Virus record (IMG/VR): IMGVR_UViG_3300046479_000175 | DNA length: 20,000 nucleotides | Reading direction: 5' to 3' (one strand) | Origin: an uncultured virus (IMG/VR IMGVR_UViG_3300046479_000175) | Lineage: Duplodnaviria > Heunggongvirae > Uroviricota > Caudoviricetes | Shown here: positions 5,133 through 11,654 of the stretch, piece by piece | Position numbering within the stretch: position 1 is the stretch's first letter | How the letters are laid out: each line of letters begins with the position of its first letter | Program-made: the position numbers and the translations under genes | The notes under the pieces: generated by a model | Told to the model about the DNA's origin: nothing | The model's database searches: none | What the model saw: only the letters and a program-made list of their open reading frames with translations

Positions 5133-5807
5133 ATGCCCGAAGCTTCAATTCTTGAACTCATTTCGATTATCGTCAGCGCTATTTCGGCGCTGCTAGGGAC
5201 TGCCTTCGCCTCCGAGACAGCTACCAAACTGCTCGCAAAGTATTTCAAATCGGAAATCAGGTATATATCCATCGGCGGCACAAAGTATGCACTTGCGGAT
5301 GCCGCGTCAGCTCTGGGGGCGAAGCCACCTCCGCCATCGGACGCACCAACCGTTCCAAAGATTGATACAGCACGGGACCATCTGATTACCCGATTGAATC
5401 AGGCGTCAGAATTAGAACGCAGGGATCGGATTCTATCGAACGTATGCAGATGGTCGTCGCGACTTTTCACCTTCAGTCAATACATCGTTGGCGGAGCATT
5501 AACGCTTTCGTTCGTCAAACAGCAATTTAGTGCGCAGACTATTGGCGTTTTTGGGGTTGTCGTCTTTGTCGCCTCCGGATTAAATCAGCATTTCAACCCT
5601 AGCGGACGTGCGGAAGTCGCAGAAACGGCCGCGGAGCAATTCGAGGACTTGATTCGCGAAACCGAGGACAAACTCCTTGCCATCGACCTCACCAGCGACG
5701 GCGTAAATAAAGACCCGAAGCCGATACTTGATTTGATAAAGAAGACGTCGTCGGAGATCGGCCGGATCAAGGCCATGAGTAAACGCCGGAACCGTACCAA
5801 GCACTGA
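5133..5807 (+). CDS. Membrane protein with SLATT/DUF4231-like 2TM domain and extra N-terminal TM
   Basis: N-terminal hydrophobic helix, Pro-rich linker, two TM helices (FTFSQYIVGGALTLSFV; TIGVFGVVVFVASGLN), then FNPSGRAEVAETAAEQFEDL, the usual post-TM helix pattern of SLATT domains. Opposite strand to the phage operon. Confidence 0.6.
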   Translation: MPEASILELISIIVSAISALLGTAFASETATKLLAKYFKSEIRYISIGGTKYALADAASALGAKPPPPSDAPTVPKIDTARDHLITRLNQASELERRDRILSNVCRWSSRLFTFSQYIVGGALTLSFVKQQFSAQTIGVFGVVVFVASGLNQHFNPSGRAEVAETAAEQFEDLIRETEDKLLAIDLTSDGVNKDPKPILDLIKKTSSEIGRIKAMSKRRNRTKH

Positions 5808-5917
5808 TCATCTTTGGTGCTTCCCGAAAAACCACAGTTCCCCTTCCGTGGCGCCGCCCCGCTAATGACAGGACACGGTCAGAGAGACCCAACGATACGG
5901 CGTTAGAATGAGTCGTA

Positions 5918-6346
5918 ATGTCCCGCCTGACCAAAGAACGTATCGCCGCGGTAGTCGACGCCCACCACCTCGATAAGGAAGAAGCCGATGCCGCAACAAG
6001 CGCTGCATCACACATCATCAACATGTTCGTCGAATGGAACATGTCGCCGGAATCTGTTGCTGGCGTCATGGAGTTGCTAGCCCATCTGCGTCATGATCGC
6101 TGCGCGGCGAAGCCGACGCAGTCAGGTGAGAACAGAGAGCCCTTTGAGATTTTCACCGAAGCCGTAGCCGAAACGGGCAGAAATGGTTTGACGAAAAGTG
6201 AATTGCTTCCCACCTTGCTGGATTTCTCGGCGGCTATAGCAATCGCCCTCGGCGGTGAAGAGGCTTTGGTTAACTGCATGATCCGCTTTGGGGATCGTAT
6301 CAAGGACTTCCGGGAGGGGACGTTCCCCGTGGATGACGCTACATAA
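5918..6346 (+). CDS. Hypothetical helical protein
   Basis: 142-aa ORF with protein-like composition; TAGAAT at 5904-5909, 8 nt before the ATG. Confidence 0.65.
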   Translation: MSRLTKERIAAVVDAHHLDKEEADAATSAASHIINMFVEWNMSPESVAGVMELLAHLRHDRCAAKPTQSGENREPFEIFTEAVAETGRNGLTKSELLPTLLDFSAAIAIALGGEEALVNCMIRFGDRIKDFREGTFPVDDAT

Positions 6347-6527
6347 GCCGTGGGACCTTATCCATTTGTTCGGGCCCATACCGGCCCCCTAATCGGCTGG
6401 CCAGTGCTCGTTCCCCTCACTTCTTAGTTAGCCGCGCAGTTTTTTCCACGACATTCATGCCAATGAAGTCGTAATAGTACTTGACCGGGTTGTCCCTCGA
6501 GAGTCCAATTGCCTATCGCGGAGGCTC

Positions 6528-7145
6528 TTGATGGATAACCAAACTAAACACAAATGGGCTGTGGCTGGGTTGGTCATTTTCCTTGTTTTGCTTGTTGTCG
6601 GTGGGATTGTCTATGCATGGATTCCGATCAAGATCGATGCTCCGTCCAATGACCGACTGGTGGTTTTGATTTACACCGACGCTTATTGGTTTAAACAACT
6701 TTACATGCGATGGACGGTCGTCGATTGGGCGCTGACAGCGTTCGCTGCAGGGACTGCCGTTAGCGCAGCCATCAAGAATGCCTATTCAGTGAAGCAAGAC
6801 AAGCAAGATGCGCCATCGAAACTCGACATTACCCTAATGATCTTAGCGGTTCTTGCGGTCCTTGCGACCACCTTCGACGCGAAGCTTCACGCAGGACAAT
6901 TGGCCGAGCAATATCGAAAGGGCGACTTAATTCTTCAGGACGCGAAGATGCACTTCGAGAAAAATCCAAATGATCCAGCTGCCAAGGATAAACTCCTTGC
7001 CGAGTGGCAGAAGGCCGAAGATATTCTCGAATCTCCTCAGCCGATAGGAAAATCTCGGGGTGATGGCCAAACACCCCCAGTCGCAGATCCGAGCGCTCCA
7101 GTGAATGACCAGGCAAAGAAGAAGACGAACACATCGGGAGATTAG
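6528..7145 (+). CDS. Membrane protein with SLATT/DUF4231-like 2TM domain and extra N-terminal TM
   Basis: GGAGG RBS; N-terminal TM, two further TMs (VVDWALTAFAAGTAVSAAI; LMILAVLAVLATTF), then HAGQLAEQYRKGDLIL. Confidence 0.6.
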   Translation: MMDNQTKHKWAVAGLVIFLVLLVVGGIVYAWIPIKIDAPSNDRLVVLIYTDAYWFKQLYMRWTVVDWALTAFAAGTAVSAAIKNAYSVKQDKQDAPSKLDITLMILAVLAVLATTFDAKLHAGQLAEQYRKGDLILQDAKMHFEKNPNDPAAKDKLLAEWQKAEDILESPQPIGKSRGDGQTPPVADPSAPVNDQAKKKTNTSGD

Positions 7146-7172
7146 ATCTAACATACTTCCACTTCCGTAGCC

Positions 7173-7481
7173 CTAGTCAACCAGCGATGCCACATTCAGC
7201 AGTTTGGCGCCCTCGCGGCGCAGTCGGTCGATCCAAACGGCTTCGGAAATGTCCCATTTCGCGTCATTATCGATCACCACGATCTTAGGCTGAAGATCCT
7301 TGGCATGAAGCGCGAGTAGCCACGCACCCACCGGTGACAGGCGCAACCCTCTATTGCGCCGGTTCCTCATATTTTTGAAATGCCATTTCAGCCTTGTCTT
7401 TGGGCCACACCGGGTCTGCCCAACGTACCGCGTCTCCCCCGTCTCCGGGCAGATCAAAACATAAACTCTGGCTCGGCCCAT
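7173..7481 (-). CDS. GIY-YIG nuclease family protein
   Basis: VYVL..RYVGQT..RLKWH and the later E-x-x-WI..LLN pattern; stand-alone catalytic domain of 102 aa. Confidence 0.85.
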   Translation of the reverse strand: MGRARVYVLICPETGETRYVGQTRCGPKTRLKWHFKNMRNRRNRGLRLSPVGAWLLALHAKDLQPKIVVIDNDAKWDISEAVWIDRLRREGAKLLNVASLVD

Positions 7482-7494
7482 TCGCTTTCCTCAT

Positions 7495-7800
7495 AGCTCC
7501 GCCCTTTCTACCTGCCGGTCTGACCCCGCAGCCCACGACCAATGGGAGGCAACATGCCCGTATACTCGTTCCCTTTCAAAACTGTGCAATCCCTTGCACA
7601 GCTAACCGGAAGCATTTTTCGGAGCTTCCACGCTCGGTTGTAGGCCGGAGGTCATCCCGGCTGGCACACCGAACGCTGCCGTACCGATCCCGGTTTTGCC
7701 GGAATACCGTATAGGTCGAGGGTGGAAGTGGCACACCAGAGCCCCTGTTTTGTTCGGCATCTGACGAGCAGGGATGCCGCAAGCTGCGGGTGACACATCA
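7495..7800 (-). ncRNA. Putative large structured RNA / leader upstream of GIY-YIG (family unknown)
   Basis: Many stems: 7755-7761/7773-7779, long-range 7625-7631/7722-7728 enclosing three hairpins, and 7582-7589/7594-7601 with a GGGA (GNRA) loop on the minus strand. G-U pairs favour the minus strand. Boundaries approximate. Confidence 0.5.
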
Positions 7801-7804
7801 TGTA

Positions 7805-7833
7805 TTGCTTTTTGATGGAGAGGCGGCTATAGA
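7805..7833 (+). promoter_or_regulatory. Putative sigma70 promoter TTGCTT-N17-TATAGA for the small antisense RNA
   Basis: -35 at 7805-7810, exact 17-nt spacer, GCTATAGA -10 region resembling alphaproteobacterial housekeeping promoters. Confidence 0.55.
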
Positions 7834-7837
7834 TAGT

Positions 7838-7926
7838 GCCGCATTCTGCCGCAACAGCAATGCACCGGCTCGGGACTGTCACCAACAGACCGGCCATGGA
7901 GGGGAACCCTAGCGGTTCCCCTTTTC
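7838..7926 (+). ncRNA. Putative ~90-nt three-hairpin antisense RNA
   Basis: Bounded by a promoter and a terminator; hairpin 1 at 7841-7863 (loop CCGCAA), hairpin 2 at 7865-7893 (loop CACCA), hairpin 3 is the terminator. Confidence 0.55.
7900..7926 (+). terminator. Intrinsic terminator
   Basis: GGGGAACC-ctagc-GGTTCCCC followed by TTTTCATTTT. Confidence 0.75.
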
Positions 7927-7954
7927 ATTTTCAAGTGTCTTATGTAATCTCCCT

Positions 7955-8173
7955 CATCGGACGTCGCTCCCAATTCCACTCGGTGCTGGTACTTCCGTCC
8001 TGCCGGGCCAGCAACGGCCAAGCCGAGCAGGTTAGGGAATGAGGCTGCGTGGTTGAAGCTGAAGGCCTCCTTTGTGGCGTGGGTGGGGATTGTCGCAACC
8101 AATCTCCTTAGTGGGGTGGTCCCGTTCCGCCCCGACAATACGGGACACCGCTCTCCGAAGCGACGCCGCGATG
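7955..8173 (+). ncRNA. Putative ~220-nt closed multi-stem RNA or ssDNA structure (family unknown)
   Basis: Closing stem CATCG..CGTCGCT (7955-7968) with AGCGACG..CGATG (8159-8173); four or more internal stems; G-U pairs favour the plus strand. Confidence 0.4.
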
Positions 8174-8345
8174 CGTGCGCCCAGCACGCTGACGCGAGCG
8201 GCGGCGCGCTTCACCGCAGGTGCGGTTTCGGGACCGCGCGCGAATGCGCGCCCACCGGCACGGCTGAATTGCTATCGAAAAGGCCTATAATGCCGCTCAT
8301 CATCTCCCGGGCCATGCGGCTCCATCTAAGATAGGAGGGGCGAAA

Positions 8346-9896
8346 ATGTCCGCTCCCGTTATTAAGTTACGTCGGTTGATTCAAGAAAACAGCAGGATCC
8401 AGAAGGGTTCGTCGATTGAGATCGATTACGTTGATGTCACTCATGCTTTAGCAGATGCCACCACCCGCCAAAACCACGTCGTTTTCGGGCGCCGCGGATG
8501 TGGAAAGAGTTTGCTCCTGGAAAAGGTTCGAAAGGGGATCGGCCCGAACATCAAGGCTATCTATATAAACTGCGAGGACTACAAGCATCATTCGTTTCCA
8601 AACGTTCTTATCGAGATCCTCGATGCTGTTTTCACGGAAATCGAGGAACATCTCAGCGGGTGGTTCGGCAAGAAGAAGCGCCTGCGCGCTCTCGTCGCCG
8701 AGCTGAGAGGATCGCTCGACAAACTTCGAACCAAGGATGACGAAATTGAGAAGAAGGTGAAGAGCCGCGCTGAAATCGAAAAGAAGGGGTCTGCTAGCGC
8801 AAAAGCAGCGGTTCCTCACACGCATCTCGGCTTCGAGTTCTCTGGCGCGCGCAAAGAATCTATTGAGGCGGAATATCACACGTTCGATGACAAAATCCGT
8901 GATCTCAACCAACTGCTGCCGAAATTGAAGAGGACGATTCAGCAGTTTTTTGACTTATCAAACAAGGTTGAGGTCATCTTCATCGAACTGGATGATTTCT
9001 ACCAGCTGAGAAGGCCCATCCAGCCTTATGTTGCCGATTACGTTCATCGACTGTGCAAAGACCTTCCTCTGTTCTTCAAGATCGGAACGTTGCGTCACGT
9101 AAGCTCACTTTATGCTGACCGCCATCAGCAACCCATTGGCGCACAAGAGCGTCATGACTATCAACCAATAAACGTCGACTACACTCTCGCTGATTTCAAG
9201 AAAACATCGGCCCAGATTCGCAAAATACTGCATGAGTACGCGAAAAAAGCAGGGATGACGCCGGATGAAGCAGACTCACTGTTCAAGGGAGAGGGCTTCA
9301 ACCGCCTCGTGCTCGCATCCGGTGGCGTACCGCGCGATTTTCTTTCCCTCCTCCTTGAGGCCCTAGCCGACAAGCCGCCGGGCGATGAAAAGATCGGGAA
9401 GGATGATGTAAGGGGGCTCAGTCTTCGAACCTTTCATCACCGCATCGAAGAATTGAAGGCAGACTCAGAGGAGAAAGATCACGACACGCTCATACGCGGA
9501 ATCTATGCAATCCGTAAGCTCTGCCTCGACCGCAAGACAAACGTCTTCCTGGTCGCCGACAAGAATCTCCAAGAAATGAGCGGAATTAAGGACCTCCTAA
9601 ATCGGCTGGTCGACTATCGAATCGTTCACCTCGTCGGAGCAGCATTGACCCACAAATCTCAGCCGGGGACCTTTACCGCTTACATGATCGATATGGGTGC
9701 CCATGCAAATATGCGCAAATTGGCCGGCAAATTTAAGGAAATCGACATCACAGCCCCAGATGCGAAAGAGCAGTGCCGGAATGCTCCAGTTCTGGAAGTG
9801 GCGACGCTGGAAGCGATGTTCGCTTCCGCTCCTATTAACGCCGAAGAGGTCCTCATAAAAGAGGTGGAGAGTGAGGAGGAGGAGGATTCGAACTAG
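8346..9896 (+). CDS. P-loop ATPase (AAA+/ORC-CDC6-like or STAND-like), inserted cargo
   Basis: Walker A GRRGCGKS, Walker B IFIELDDF, GGVPRDF motif, probable C-terminal winged helix; TATAAT at 8286-8291 and AGGAGG RBS; opposite strand to the flanking phage genes. Confidence 0.8.
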   Translation: MSAPVIKLRRLIQENSRIQKGSSIEIDYVDVTHALADATTRQNHVVFGRRGCGKSLLLEKVRKGIGPNIKAIYINCEDYKHHSFPNVLIEILDAVFTEIEEHLSGWFGKKKRLRALVAELRGSLDKLRTKDDEIEKKVKSRAEIEKKGSASAKAAVPHTHLGFEFSGARKESIEAEYHTFDDKIRDLNQLLPKLKRTIQQFFDLSNKVEVIFIELDDFYQLRRPIQPYVADYVHRLCKDLPLFFKIGTLRHVSSLYADRHQQPIGAQERHDYQPINVDYTLADFKKTSAQIRKILHEYAKKAGMTPDEADSLFKGEGFNRLVLASGGVPRDFLSLLLEALADKPPGDEKIGKDDVRGLSLRTFHHRIEELKADSEEKDHDTLIRGIYAIRKLCLDRKTNVFLVADKNLQEMSGIKDLLNRLVDYRIVHLVGAALTHKSQPGTFTAYMIDMGAHANMRKLAGKFKEIDITAPDAKEQCRNAPVLEVATLEAMFASAPINAEEVLIKEVESEEEEDSN

Positions 9897-10127: not shown

Positions 10128-10361
10128 CCCAAGACGAACAAGATGCCACAGGATAGGCCTCACCACGAATTCATCGAGATCGTCATCAACCTGCTCAACG
10201 ACGGCCACAACCTCCATCGGCGTCAGCCAAATGAAGTCCGTTATGTGATTTAGAACGATTGAACGTAGCTTATGTTTACGTGGCCGGCGCCCATAGGGCT
10301 TACGTTTTGTCCGACCGGAGATCTTCACTGCCTCGGGAGGCGTCCACCCTCGCTTCATCAT
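10029..10361 (-). CDS. Hypothetical protein, possible winged-helix DNA-binding domain
   Basis: ATGA overlap with rusA; basic N-terminus; LTPMEVV..VRPILWHLVRLGLLERR..GYQV resembles a wHTH recognition helix plus wing. Confidence 0.6.
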   Translation of the reverse strand: MMKRGWTPPEAVKISGRTKRKPYGRRPRKHKLRSIVLNHITDFIWLTPMEVVAVVEQVDDDLDEFVVRPILWHLVRLGLLERRQYWGYGRLNGYQVKKPSRSRHARIGGE

Positions 10362-10765
10362 TGTTCGATCACTGACACCGTCACATACGTCTTTTCCTCC
10401 ACCTCTGTGTATTGCCGCCGGACGATCAGTTCGTTCACGAACCGATCATCGAGGAACACCGTCCGGTTCATCCCATCGGTGATCGCCTTCACGCAGTTGT
10501 CAACGTCGCAATGCGTTGGCATCAACTCGCCGCGTAGCGCAAGGCCGCGCTTCTTCGAAGACCAAGATTGCGGTATCGAGCAGTAGATGCGGATGCTTAG
10601 GCTGACGAAGCCGAGCAATGGCGGATTGCCCTTCATCGCGATGTTTGCGACCTGACGAACGAGTTTTTCGTAGGCGCGCGTTTCAGGGGGCGTTACGAAG
10701 CGGTTGCCGAACGTCCGTTGCTTTGGCTGACAGTAGCCGGGTATTTCGAACTCGACCGCCCGCAT
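10358..10765 (-). CDS. rusA: RusA-family Holliday junction resolvase
   Basis: DVDNCVKAITDGMN..FLDDRFV catalytic motif; N-terminal IPG..QPKQR..TPPETRAYE. Confidence 0.92.
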   Translation of the reverse strand: MRAVEFEIPGYCQPKQRTFGNRFVTPPETRAYEKLVRQVANIAMKGNPPLLGFVSLSIRIYCSIPQSWSSKKRGLALRGELMPTHCDVDNCVKAITDGMNRTVFLDDRFVNELIVRRQYTEVEEKTYVTVSVIEQ

Positions 10766-10776
10766 TCATAGCATCT

Positions 10777-11040
10777 CTAATCCAAGTAGCCCAATAAGAA
10801 GCCGGGGAGCGAATAATCAGCTTCCCGCGATGCTATTCGCCGCTCATCAATATCCGCATTCTTCCGCTTGCGCGCAACTCTGTACGACTTCCATGGAGCG
10901 CGCTTCTCTAATCTGAGGCGATGGACCTTCCCAAGAACCGCGCAACGTGATGTCTTCAGCGCGAATGCGATCTCCTTTGGGCTCTTTCCAGCGGCCCACA
11001 TCTGTTTCAGTCGTTCAGCGTCTTCGGCGCTCCATTTCAT
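10777..11040 (-). CDS. gcrA: GcrA-like protein (N-terminal DNA-binding domain only)
   Basis: MKWSAEDAERLKQMWAAGKSPKEIAFALKTSRCAVLGKVHRLRL matches the GcrA N-terminal HTH (W..E....L...W..G.S..IA..L..SRNAVIGK.HRL); the C-terminal domain is absent. Confidence 0.85.
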   Translation of the reverse strand: MKWSAEDAERLKQMWAAGKSPKEIAFALKTSRCAVLGKVHRLRLEKRAPWKSYRVARKRKNADIDERRIASREADYSLPGFLLGYLD

Positions 11041-11654
11041 GCGGCGCCACCGGCAGCCGCGAATTTATCCGTCTGGTTTCCCCATGTGTCCCATCCCGAT
11101 CTGCGCTGCCGGGCAAAGAGTTCGCAATATGGACCAGCAACAAGCCGCTCAATCCTTTCGTGAATGCCCTCGGGCTTCCGAGAGTGCTCTCGGCGGGGAG
11201 CGATGATGCCTTGGCGAACGTCGGCGTGCAGACGCTTAGGCTTACCCCGCGTCGCAAGCAAAGAGGGCTCGGTGTTCGCCCGCGTCCAGTAGCCGAGGCC
11301 CGCGAAAGGTGTTTTGTCATCCGCGAAGAGTCGATACGGGTCCGCTTTCATCCAGCTAAAGGCGCACGTTTTGTAGGTAAATCCCCACGCATCCAAAATC
11401 GCGAGCGAGCGCTGCAGGACAGGCCAGCAAGTCCACATGAATAGAACGCAGTCCTCTGCCGCCAATTCCGAAACTGGCAACGCGGCAATTTTGTCGTCGT
11501 CCATCAGGTCGTAATGTCGTTCGATAGCCCGCGACGGATAGTTATTTCCAACCTTCTTGGGTCGCGCTCCCCAAAGAGAGTTAAAGACCCATGGCGGATC
11601 CGCAAGGATCGCCCCGTAATGACCGGCCTTCAGATCTTCGAAAGGCCACGTCAT
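11037..11654 (-). CDS. MT-A70 family N6-adenine methyltransferase
   Basis: ILADPPW catalytic motif, LFMW, AWGFTYKT, GLGYWTRANTE, EHSRKP and ELFAR. Confidence 0.93.
   Translation of the reverse strand: MTWPFEDLKAGHYGAILADPPWVFNSLWGARPKKVGNNYPSRAIERHYDLMDDDKIAALPVSELAAEDCVLFMWTCWPVLQRSLAILDAWGFTYKTCAFSWMKADPYRLFADDKTPFAGLGYWTRANTEPSLLATRGKPKRLHADVRQGIIAPRREHSRKPEGIHERIERLVAGPYCELFARQRRSGWDTWGNQTDKFAAAGGAA

What the first reader, a model, noticed from the sequence alone, without database searches (positions are those of the whole stretch)
7734..7926. Antisense sRNA whose loops match a second, downstream target with mutually exclusive hairpins
Seen: a promoter (7805-7833), three hairpins and a terminator. 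The loop-1 sequence TGCCGCAA (7847-7854) is repeated at 7775-7782, and the loop-2 sequence CACCA (7880-7884) at 7734-7738. The sRNA can therefore pair with the minus-strand RNA at its template site and again further downstream. The 7775-7782 target lies where two alternative hairpins compete (7777-7789 versus 7755-7779). Established: the P1/P7 C4 and P4 CI RNAs act through short repeated target boxes. Inference: an RNA switch that could provide immunity or copy control in a phage lacking CI. The 5-nt match alone is weak evidence.
Basis: partly seen in the sequence, partly recalled or inferred. Interest (0 to 1): 0.72.

Follow-up and report, generated by a model that had tools for sequence, protein, structure and literature searches.

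The report
Small-RNA module beside conserved phage RNA element
The region holds a plausible 90-base small RNA next to a conserved, folded, non-coding element of a soil phage, but the proposed antisense switch built on repeated boxes does not hold up.

Summary
The motifs, hairpins and terminator are at the stated coordinates. The 8-nt repeat is no more than chance: 25% of shuffles give an equal or longer direct match. The promoter fails a sigma-70 scan.

The "target" half (7734-7790) is the 3' end of a ~310-nt conserved non-coding element (7492-7799). Two other metagenome contigs carry it (L001, L002), with compensatory stem changes and no open frame. TGCCGCAA at 7775-7782 is one arm of a conserved stem.

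In L002 that stem is identical, but the sRNA region is unrelated in sequence. It keeps the same layout: TTGC..TATA, two hairpins, terminator. It has no repeated boxes. Hairpin B is broken in L001. No Rfam family matches, C4 included.

A same-strand pairing does co-vary. The loop-2 region (7877-7888) pairs with 7784-7795; the L002 counterparts pair 11 of 11.

My best reading (0.4) is a plus-strand non-coding locus: a conserved scaffold plus a swappable ~90-nt module matched to a box at the scaffold's edge. The logic resembles P4 CI, but it is not a family member. The evidence rests on three sequences, and no expression data cover the sRNA.

The parts
7492..7799 (+). Conserved, structured, non-coding element of about 310 nt. 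The strand is tentative; + is favoured.
   Evidence: It aligns with L001 and L002 from another collection. The consensus fold has 79 pairs with 95.4% of cells paired. Seven pairs change on both sides; 1 of 500 shuffles reaches this, and slid controls give 0-1. Substitutions show no codon-position bias, all six frames carry stops in at least one sequence, and indels are 7, 1, 1 and 1 nt. No Rfam match.
7743..7790 (+). 3' hairpin of the conserved element.
   Evidence: The outer stem 7744-7747/7787-7790 pairs 4 of 4 in all three sequences. The inner stem 7753-7762/7772-7782 pairs 10/10, 8/10 and 10/10, with one compensatory change. 7748-7791 is identical in L002 and in one 151-nt contig of run X14.
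7784..7795 (+). Left box. It is complementary, on the same strand, to hairpin 2 of the sRNA module.
   Evidence: 7784-7786 and 7789-7795 pair with 7886-7888 and 7877-7883: 10 of 12 positions (I9). Duplex energy is -16.4 kcal/mol, and 8.3% of 1000 shuffles do as well. The homologous L002 site 450-460 pairs 11 of 11 with 546-556 (I3), at -23.2 kcal/mol, and 0.2% of shuffles do as well.
7805..7833 (+). Promoter-like sequence: TTGCTT, 17-nt spacer, TATAGA.
   Evidence: It fails the sigma-70 scan. The TTGC and GCGnnTATA positions align with L002 in an otherwise dissimilar stretch. L001 has TTGACG at the same place.
7841..7863 (+). Hairpin 1 of the putative sRNA, with loop CCGCAA at 7849-7854.
   Evidence: Minimum-energy fold. 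The sequence is not conserved in L002.
7867..7895 (+). Hairpin 2 of the putative sRNA, with loop CACCA at 7880-7884 and the right box at 7877-7888.
   Evidence: Minimum-energy fold. It is complementary to 7784-7795. Its 3' side resembles the 3' side of the L002 terminator hairpin.
7898..7932 (+). Intrinsic terminator: stem-loop 7898-7924 followed by a T-rich tail.
   Evidence: Terminator scan and fold. The tail is shared with L002, while the stems differ.
7173..7481 (-). Small GIY-YIG nuclease gene that abuts the 5' edge of the conserved element. Context only.
   Evidence: Pfam GIY-YIG, E 2e-4, 22.1 bits against a cut-off of 22.6. It is absent upstream of the element in L001 and L002. A homologue at 50% identity in L003 also sits beside a non-coding gap of about 620 nt.

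Best explanation
The finding straddles two adjacent non-coding modules in an accessory island of a phage-like contig.

Module 1 (7492-7799) is a conserved RNA-like element of about 310 nt with several helices.

Module 2 is a unit of about 90 nt that ends at a terminator (about 7838-7928). It is probably transcribed from its own weak promoter (7805-7833) on the + strand. Its body differs completely between close relatives, like a swapped cassette.

Inferred mechanism: hairpin 2 of module 2 (7877-7888, loop CACCA) pairs with the box 7784-7795. This box sits on the same strand, at the 3' edge of module 1. The pairing acts on plus-strand RNA that reads out of module 1, either in trans (the small RNA on a longer read-through RNA) or in cis. 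It competes with the stem that closes the last hairpin of module 1 (7744-7747/7787-7790). The box and loop sequences set the specificity, as in heteroimmune phages.

Shown here: the conservation and covariation of module 1; the recurrence of the module 2 layout; the co-varying complementarity in two sequences.

Inferred only: that either RNA is made, the strand of module 1, and any regulatory outcome.
For: - Conserved element with compensatory changes and no coding signal.
- Two hairpins keep invariant loops while their stems change on both sides.
- L002 repeats the layout with unrelated sequence. Local alignment scores of 12 and 15 compare with a shuffle mean of 13.3. Its fold has z -3.8.
- TTGC and TATA align at equal spacing.
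- Same-strand box and loop pairing sits at the homologous site in both sequences. The window pairs 7 contiguous bp plus 3; L002 pairs 11 plus 3. The duplexes have the same shape. Shuffle fractions are 0.083 and 0.002.
- Against the whole upstream element, the L002 11-mer is reached in 0.5% of shuffles.
- The loops differ by one inserted base (CACC against CAACC), and the boxes match this (GGTG against GGTTG).
- When 7783-7930 is folded as one RNA, the box-loop helix appears in the minimum-energy structure.
- Weak hint only: a contig from an RNA library carrying the L001-type element ends 2 letters beyond the position matching 7492. A DNA-run contig of the same variant continues 588 nt further.
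Against: - There are only three sequences. L001 stops before the sRNA region, so the covariation rests on two.
- The window's own pairing is not significant alone (8.3% of shuffles).
- I defined the box zone after seeing the L002 match.
- The promoter fails the sigma-70 scan in the window and in L002.
- The strand of module 1 is unresolved. Consensus folds of the two strands are similar: -94.4 kcal/mol with 79 pairs against -98.4 with 86 pairs.
- The minimum-energy folds of the full-length RNAs do not contain the box-loop helix.
- L003's analogous module shows no loop-target complementarity above chance.
- In L002 no plus-strand gene follows the terminator, so no regulated gene is evident.
Confidence: 0.4

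Rival explanations
1. There is one long plus-strand non-coding RNA of about 435 nt (about 7490-7928). Region 7784-7888 is a variable peripheral stem-loop domain closed by a co-varying helix. The promoter-like hexamers are incidental, and no separate small RNA exists.
For: - The box-loop helix encloses 81 nt in the window and 85 nt in L002.
- Folded as one RNA, 7783-7930 forms a long rod in which the -35 region pairs with the 3' arm of hairpin 1 (7801-7809/7856-7864).
- L002 has an equivalent inner helix, 465-473/528-536 (I7).
- The promoter fails the scan.
- The RNA-library contig ends at the 5' edge of the element (weak).
Against: - TTGC and TATA are kept at equal spacing in an otherwise unrelated stretch.
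- No promoter is visible upstream of 7492, and the three upstream flanks are unrelated.
- The minimum-energy folds of the full-length RNAs do not use the helix.
Confidence: 0.25
2. A small RNA or a plain terminator is present, but there is no special pairing. The complementarities and repeats are chance. The conserved element and the 90-nt module are unrelated neighbours.
For: - The window's pairing alone is reached in 8.3% of shuffles.
- The 8-nt repeat is at chance level.
- L003's analogous module has no matching box.
- Many inverted repeats of similar quality occur in the 864-nt gap: 32 pairs are listed.
Against: - The L002 11 of 11 match is reached in only 0.2-0.5% of shuffles, and it lies at the site homologous to the window's match.
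- The insertion in the loop is matched by one in the box.
Confidence: 0.2
3. The features act at the DNA level. TGCCGCA repeats (7775, 7837, 7847) would be protein-binding operators around a promoter with a dyad centred on the palindromic -10. Alternatively, the short inverted repeats would flank an invertible promoter segment.
For: - Three TGCCGCA copies lie within 79 nt. Two are 10 bp apart, just downstream of the -10.
- A dyad surrounds 7826-7833.
- L001 carries a second copy of the 9-mer TTGCCGCAA 730 nt upstream.
- Inverted repeats flank 81-85 nt that differ completely between relatives.
Against: - L002 has a single GCCGCAA.
- The variable segments are not inversions of each other.
- Pfam named no invertase or integrase among the 30 ORFs scanned.
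- A 7-bp repeat is short for a recombinase site.
- Compensatory changes in module 1 point to RNA.
Confidence: 0.08
4. A plus-strand sRNA acts as an antisense RNA on a minus-strand transcript at its own template. It acts a second time at the repeated boxes 7775-7782 and 7734-7738, switching between hairpins 7755-7779 and 7777-7789.
For: - The boxes and hairpins exist in the window.
- The GIY-YIG gene needs minus-strand transcription that may cross the region. By eye, a minus-strand TTGCGG, 17-nt spacer, TATAGC lies at 7854-7826; no tool supports it.
Against: - The repeat is at chance level.
- It is absent from L002 although the target there is identical.
- Hairpin B keeps 3 of 5 pairs in L001.
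- TGCCGCAA is a conserved stem arm.
- No minus-strand promoter was found by the scan.
- There is no C4 or other Rfam match.
Confidence: 0.07

Closest known systems
Satellite phage P4 immunity: CI RNA with its target sites seqA and seqC
   Same: A small phage RNA pairs with short boxes on transcripts of the same strand near its own gene. The box and loop sequences set specificity. I read the description in a passage of PMC4825925: CI RNA pairs with seqA upstream and seqC downstream and causes premature termination.
   Different: - Only one box, upstream, was found here. The box heptamer (7789-7795) does not recur on the + strand anywhere in the non-coding stretch after the terminator.
- Here a separate promoter is suggested, whereas CI RNA is processed from a leader transcript.
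- There is no sequence or structure match in Rfam.
- No downstream replication operon is evident.
P1/P7 C4 antisense RNA (Rfam C4 family; the family name is recalled, and I saw it only in the listing)
   Same: A phage immunity RNA whose loops pair with repeated boxes on the same transcript (from recall).
   Different: No covariance-model match in the window at gathering score or in 7400-8400 at E up to 10. No ant or icd-like target gene was identified.
IsrK of the Gifsy-1 prophage (short sRNA and long read-through isoform)
   Same: A short terminated RNA acts on a longer read-through RNA of the same locus and strand (abstract and one passage of PMC4825925).
   Different: In IsrK both isoforms share one promoter, and the target is a ribosome-binding region of a downstream ORF. 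Here no ORF target is known, and the box lies upstream of the putative sRNA start.
Rfam BjrC68 (Bradyrhizobiaceae sRNA)
   Same: This is the best sub-threshold Rfam match to 7852-7930. It aligns one hairpin plus the terminator.
   Different: It scores 17.1 bits against a gathering score of 39, E 0.13. Most of the score comes from the terminator. It is not a member.

Membership tests
Rfam C4 antisense RNA (P1 C4 / P4 CI) | Covariance-model match at or above the gathering score | tested here: not met
   0 families at gathering score in the whole window. C4 is not among the 6 matches at E up to 10 in 7400-8400.
P4 CI-type immunity RNA (mechanism) | sRNA complementary to boxes both upstream and downstream on the same-strand transcript | tested here: inconclusive
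   One upstream box (7784-7795) is complementary to hairpin 2 and co-varies in L002. No downstream copy exists: GGTGACA occurs on the + strand only at 7333, 7789 and 18894.
P4 CI / P1 C4 | sRNA released by processing of a longer leader transcript | not testable with these tools
   No reads with mapped ends. The runs laid were contigs only.
cis-antisense sRNA | A transcript on the opposite strand overlaps the sRNA gene | not testable with these tools
   No strand-resolved RNA data. The scan found 0 promoter-like sites on either strand in 7000-8700.
   The 8-nt repeat is reached in 25.3% of shuffles. In L002 the longest direct match is 6 nt, and 98.8% of shuffles do as well. L002 has a single GCCGCAA.
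   Hairpin A pairs 7/7, 5/7 and 7/7. Hairpin B pairs 5/5, 3/5 and 5/5 (window, L001, L002).
Rfam BjrC68 | Score at or above the gathering score of 39 bits | tested here: not met
   17.1 bits, E 0.13.
Intrinsic (Rho-independent) terminator | G+C-rich stem-loop followed by a T run | tested here: met
   7898-7924, 11 pairs, 6 G-C, T-rich tail. L002 has a counterpart at 539-569 with the same tail.
Sigma-70-type promoter | At least 4 of 6 matches in each hexamer and 9 of 12 overall, with a 16-18 nt spacer | tested here: not met
   0 sites in 7000-8700. The L002 counterpart was not found either. TTGC and TATA are nonetheless conserved between the window and L002.
Structured non-coding RNA (generic) | Base pairs kept through changes on both sides, with no coding signal | tested here: met
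   7 of 79 pairs change on both sides; 1 of 500 shuffles reaches this, and slid controls give 0-1. No codon-phase bias, and stops in every frame. Only 3 sequences, and the structure was derived from them.

The most novel reading that the evidence does not exclude
A previously undescribed phage RNA of about 430 nt. It has a conserved ~310-nt scaffold and an exchangeable ~90-nt 3' cassette. A loop in the cassette is matched to a box at the scaffold's edge. This would be a programmable specificity module, for example an RNA-only determinant of heteroimmunity, or a guide-like RNA whose partner protein is not encoded next to it.
Probability: 0.15. Interest if true: 0.75.

Novelty: new variant of a known kind. 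Interest (0 to 1): 0.45.

Why it matters
If the scaffold-plus-cassette reading holds, it adds a new RNA family to the few known cases of RNA-based specificity control in phages (P4 CI, P1 C4). This one comes from uncultured soil phages, where regulation is almost unknown.

It also gives a testable rule: the box at the scaffold's 3' edge should predict the loop of the downstream hairpin.

If it does not hold, what remains is ordinary: a terminator-ended small transcript beside a conserved non-coding element of unknown role. In either case the repeated boxes that motivated the finding are not evidence for a switch.

Tried and rejected
**Searches for homologues that found none**
- Phage records, blastn with 7482-8345.
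- Plasmid records.
- IMG/VR exact or degenerate patterns: searches gave 0 hits. One search gave 4 hits and one search gave 7. All are chance matches in unrelated, mostly coding, DNA.
- IMG/VR with the ATPase protein.
- 78 IMG/VR loci around related terminases: nhmmer found 0, and covariance model R1 matched only its own 3 training sequences in 979,054 bases.
- Species-representative genomes: one search gave 0 hits; one search gave 3 chance hits with no nhmmer match.
- 401 Acidobacteriota genomes: only 23-43 nt chance matches.
- Earlier notes of this scan: none.

**Host.** The terminase reaches only 31-40% identity in 29 of 401 Acidobacteriota genomes. The host is unresolved.

**Ideas tested and dropped**
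- Inversion of the variable segment between the window and L002.
- RNAduplex on whole regions: it gave unrealistic giant loops and no signal, so I replaced it with exact-match statistics.
- A hairpin hiding the ribosome-binding site in the ATPase leader: not in the minimum-energy fold, z -0.34.
- A known anti-phage defence system around the locus: only weak PADLOC matches.
- A coding reading of 7492-7799.

**Expression.** RNA-library run X14 has no contig over 7792-7930. Small RNAs are usually lost from such libraries, and these are contigs, so this says nothing either way.

Full report
**Setting.** The window is a phage-like contig.
- The minus strand carries portal and large terminase (1-2343), a RusA resolvase and an MT-A70 methyltransferase (10358-11654).
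- The plus strand carries exonuclease and RecT-like genes and ArdC.
- Near-identical DNA occurs in peat metagenome runs. Two independent studies hold 0.82 and 0.64 of the sampled words, and their contigs lay at 99% identity or more.
- No whole genome is held for the window.
- The finding lies in an 864-nt gap without a credible ORF (7482-8345). On one side is a 102-aa GIY-YIG gene (7173-7481, minus strand). On the other is a 516-aa P-loop ATPase (8346-9896, plus strand).
- The plus-strand genes 5133-9896 form an island. None of 78 related phage loci carries it, although their terminases reach 82% identity.

**Checking the observation.**
- The terminator 7898-7924 is strong.
- 7834-7932 folds into two hairpins plus the terminator hairpin, with z -3.08.
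- The promoter is weak and fails the sigma-70 scan.
- The repeated 8-mer is not evidence. Matching the sRNA body against the 317 nt upstream gives a direct match of 8 nt or more in 25.3% of 1000 shuffles.
- TGCCGCA occurs three times in 79 nt, and 9 times in the window against 4.2 expected. That is mildly unusual, but it was found after the fact.

**What is really there.** Laying public runs on the region showed a diverged relative that matches 7492-7522 and 7605-7751.

A pattern taken from this block retrieved two metagenome contigs, L001 and L002. The three sequences share a block from 7492 to about 7799.

Evidence that the block is non-coding:
- L001 and L002 differ from the window by 42 and 19 substitutions in 7600-7795.
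- These substitutions fall evenly over codon phases (17/14/11 and 9/4/6).
- All six frames carry stops in at least one sequence.
- Indels are 7, 1, 1 and 1 nt.

Evidence that it is structured:
- The consensus fold has 79 pairs with 95.4% of cells paired.
- Seven pairs change on both sides. One of 500 shuffles reaches this, and slid controls give 0-1.
- Two hairpins keep invariant loops while their stems change.
- A third hairpin (7581-7600) has an entirely different stem sequence at the same place in L001 and L002.

No Rfam family matches the window, L001 or L002. The flanking genes differ in all three contexts. The element therefore behaves as a self-contained module.

- The target box TGCCGCAA (7775-7782) is the 3' arm of a stem kept in all three sequences. 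The inner stem pairs 10/10, 8/10 and 10/10, with one compensatory change.
- CACCA at 7734-7738 lies in an invariant internal loop near the base of the element.
- Hairpin B (7777-7789) loses 2 of 5 pairs in L001 without compensation.
- L002 is identical to the window across 7752-7791, yet its sRNA region is unrelated in sequence in either orientation.
- L002 has one GCCGCAA only, and no direct repeat beyond 6 nt.
- So loop and target do not vary together in the way proposed.

**What survives, and what is new.** The layout of the 90-nt module recurs.
- L002 has TTGCAG, a 17-nt spacer, TATAAC, two hairpins and a terminator with the same T-rich tail. It spans about 89 nt, with z -3.8.
- MAFFT aligns TTGC and GCGnnTATA between the two otherwise dissimilar stretches.
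- L001 has TTGACG where the window has TTGCTT.
- L003 is a related phage whose GIY-YIG homologue also abuts a ~620-nt gap. It has TTGACG, an 18-nt spacer, CATAAA and an 89-nt unit of two hairpins plus terminator, on the strand opposite to GIY-YIG.

A same-strand complementarity co-varies.
- In the window, 7784-7786 and 7789-7795 pair with 7886-7888 and 7877-7883 (I9).
- In L002, 445-447 and 450-460 pair with 558-560 and 546-556, the long arm 11 of 11 (I3).
- The left arms are homologous positions just after the last helix of the element.
- The duplexes have the same shape. They are reached in 8.3% and 0.2% of shuffles. Against the whole upstream element, the L002 match is reached in 0.5%.
- The loops differ by one inserted base, and the boxes match this difference.

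So loop 2 matters, but its partner is a complementary box on the same strand.

**Mechanism.** I favour, at 0.4, a plus-strand locus in which a small RNA from 7805-7833 to the terminator pairs through hairpin 2 with the box 7784-7795. Alternatively the same sequence pairs in cis within a read-through RNA. The box lies on RNA leaving the conserved element, so the pairing competes with the stem that closes the element's last hairpin.

This is the logic of P4 CI RNA with seqA and seqC (passage in PMC4825925). It is not membership: there is one box only, no Rfam match, and no known regulated gene.

The main rival, at 0.25, is a single RNA of about 435 nt with a variable peripheral domain.

**Limits.**
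- The analysis rests on three sequences, and only two cover the sRNA region.
- The strand of the element is unresolved.
- There is no expression evidence for the 90-nt RNA.

Noticed in passing
window 7492-7799; L001 759-1068; L002 150-460: A conserved, structured, non-coding element of about 310 nt with no Rfam family. It was found in only two other metagenome contigs and in contigs of two runs. It became the centre of this report.
   Followed up: yes
L003 4120-4246 (minus strand of the locus): A related phage (terminase 82% identical) has, beside its GIY-YIG homologue, a ~620-nt gap. The gap holds a promoter-like TTGACG, an 18-nt spacer, CATAAA and an 89-nt unit of two hairpins plus terminator. 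This is a positional analogue with unrelated sequence. The best Rfam match is sub-threshold (rdlD, 24.2 bits against 50).
   Followed up: partly
window 8193-8252: A G+C-rich block of 60 nt also occurs, with 10 differences, inside an otherwise unrelated 817-nt contig of run X4, with loose ends on both sides. It may be a small repeated or mobile hairpin element. Only a weak Rfam chance match lies there (18.2 bits).
   Followed up: no
window 7748-7791: A 151-nt contig of RNA-library run X14 matches this hairpin exactly. It is preceded by 102 nt that do not match the window. The last hairpin of the element may therefore occur in a third context.
   Followed up: no
window 5133-9896: An island of plus-strand genes sits between minus-strand late and early modules. 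It includes a protein with weak SLATT/2TM-effector matches, two ORFs of unknown function, the GIY-YIG gene (minus strand) and an ORC/CDC6-like P-loop ATPase. tblastn found none of the plus-strand island proteins in 78 related phage loci; only the GIY-YIG protein has a homologue, in L003. It may be an accessory or defence island, but PADLOC gives only weak matches.
   Followed up: partly
window 7514-7522 and 7886-7894: A 9-nt exact complementarity links the invariant 5' strand of the element and the 3' arm of hairpin 2. It is reached in 5.6% of shuffles. The L002 counterpart keeps it with one bulge.
   Followed up: partly
window, whole; L001 313-321: All 9 copies of TGCCGCA in the window lie on the + strand. 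L001 carries a second copy of TTGCCGCAA about 730 nt upstream of the conserved one.
   Followed up: no
window 7830-7844 and 8314-8328: A 15-nt stretch spanning the -10 and the start of the putative sRNA is 87% complementary to the ATPase leader just upstream of its ribosome-binding site. The leader fold is not unusual (z -0.34), and L002 has no ATPase, so I did not pursue it.
   Followed up: partly
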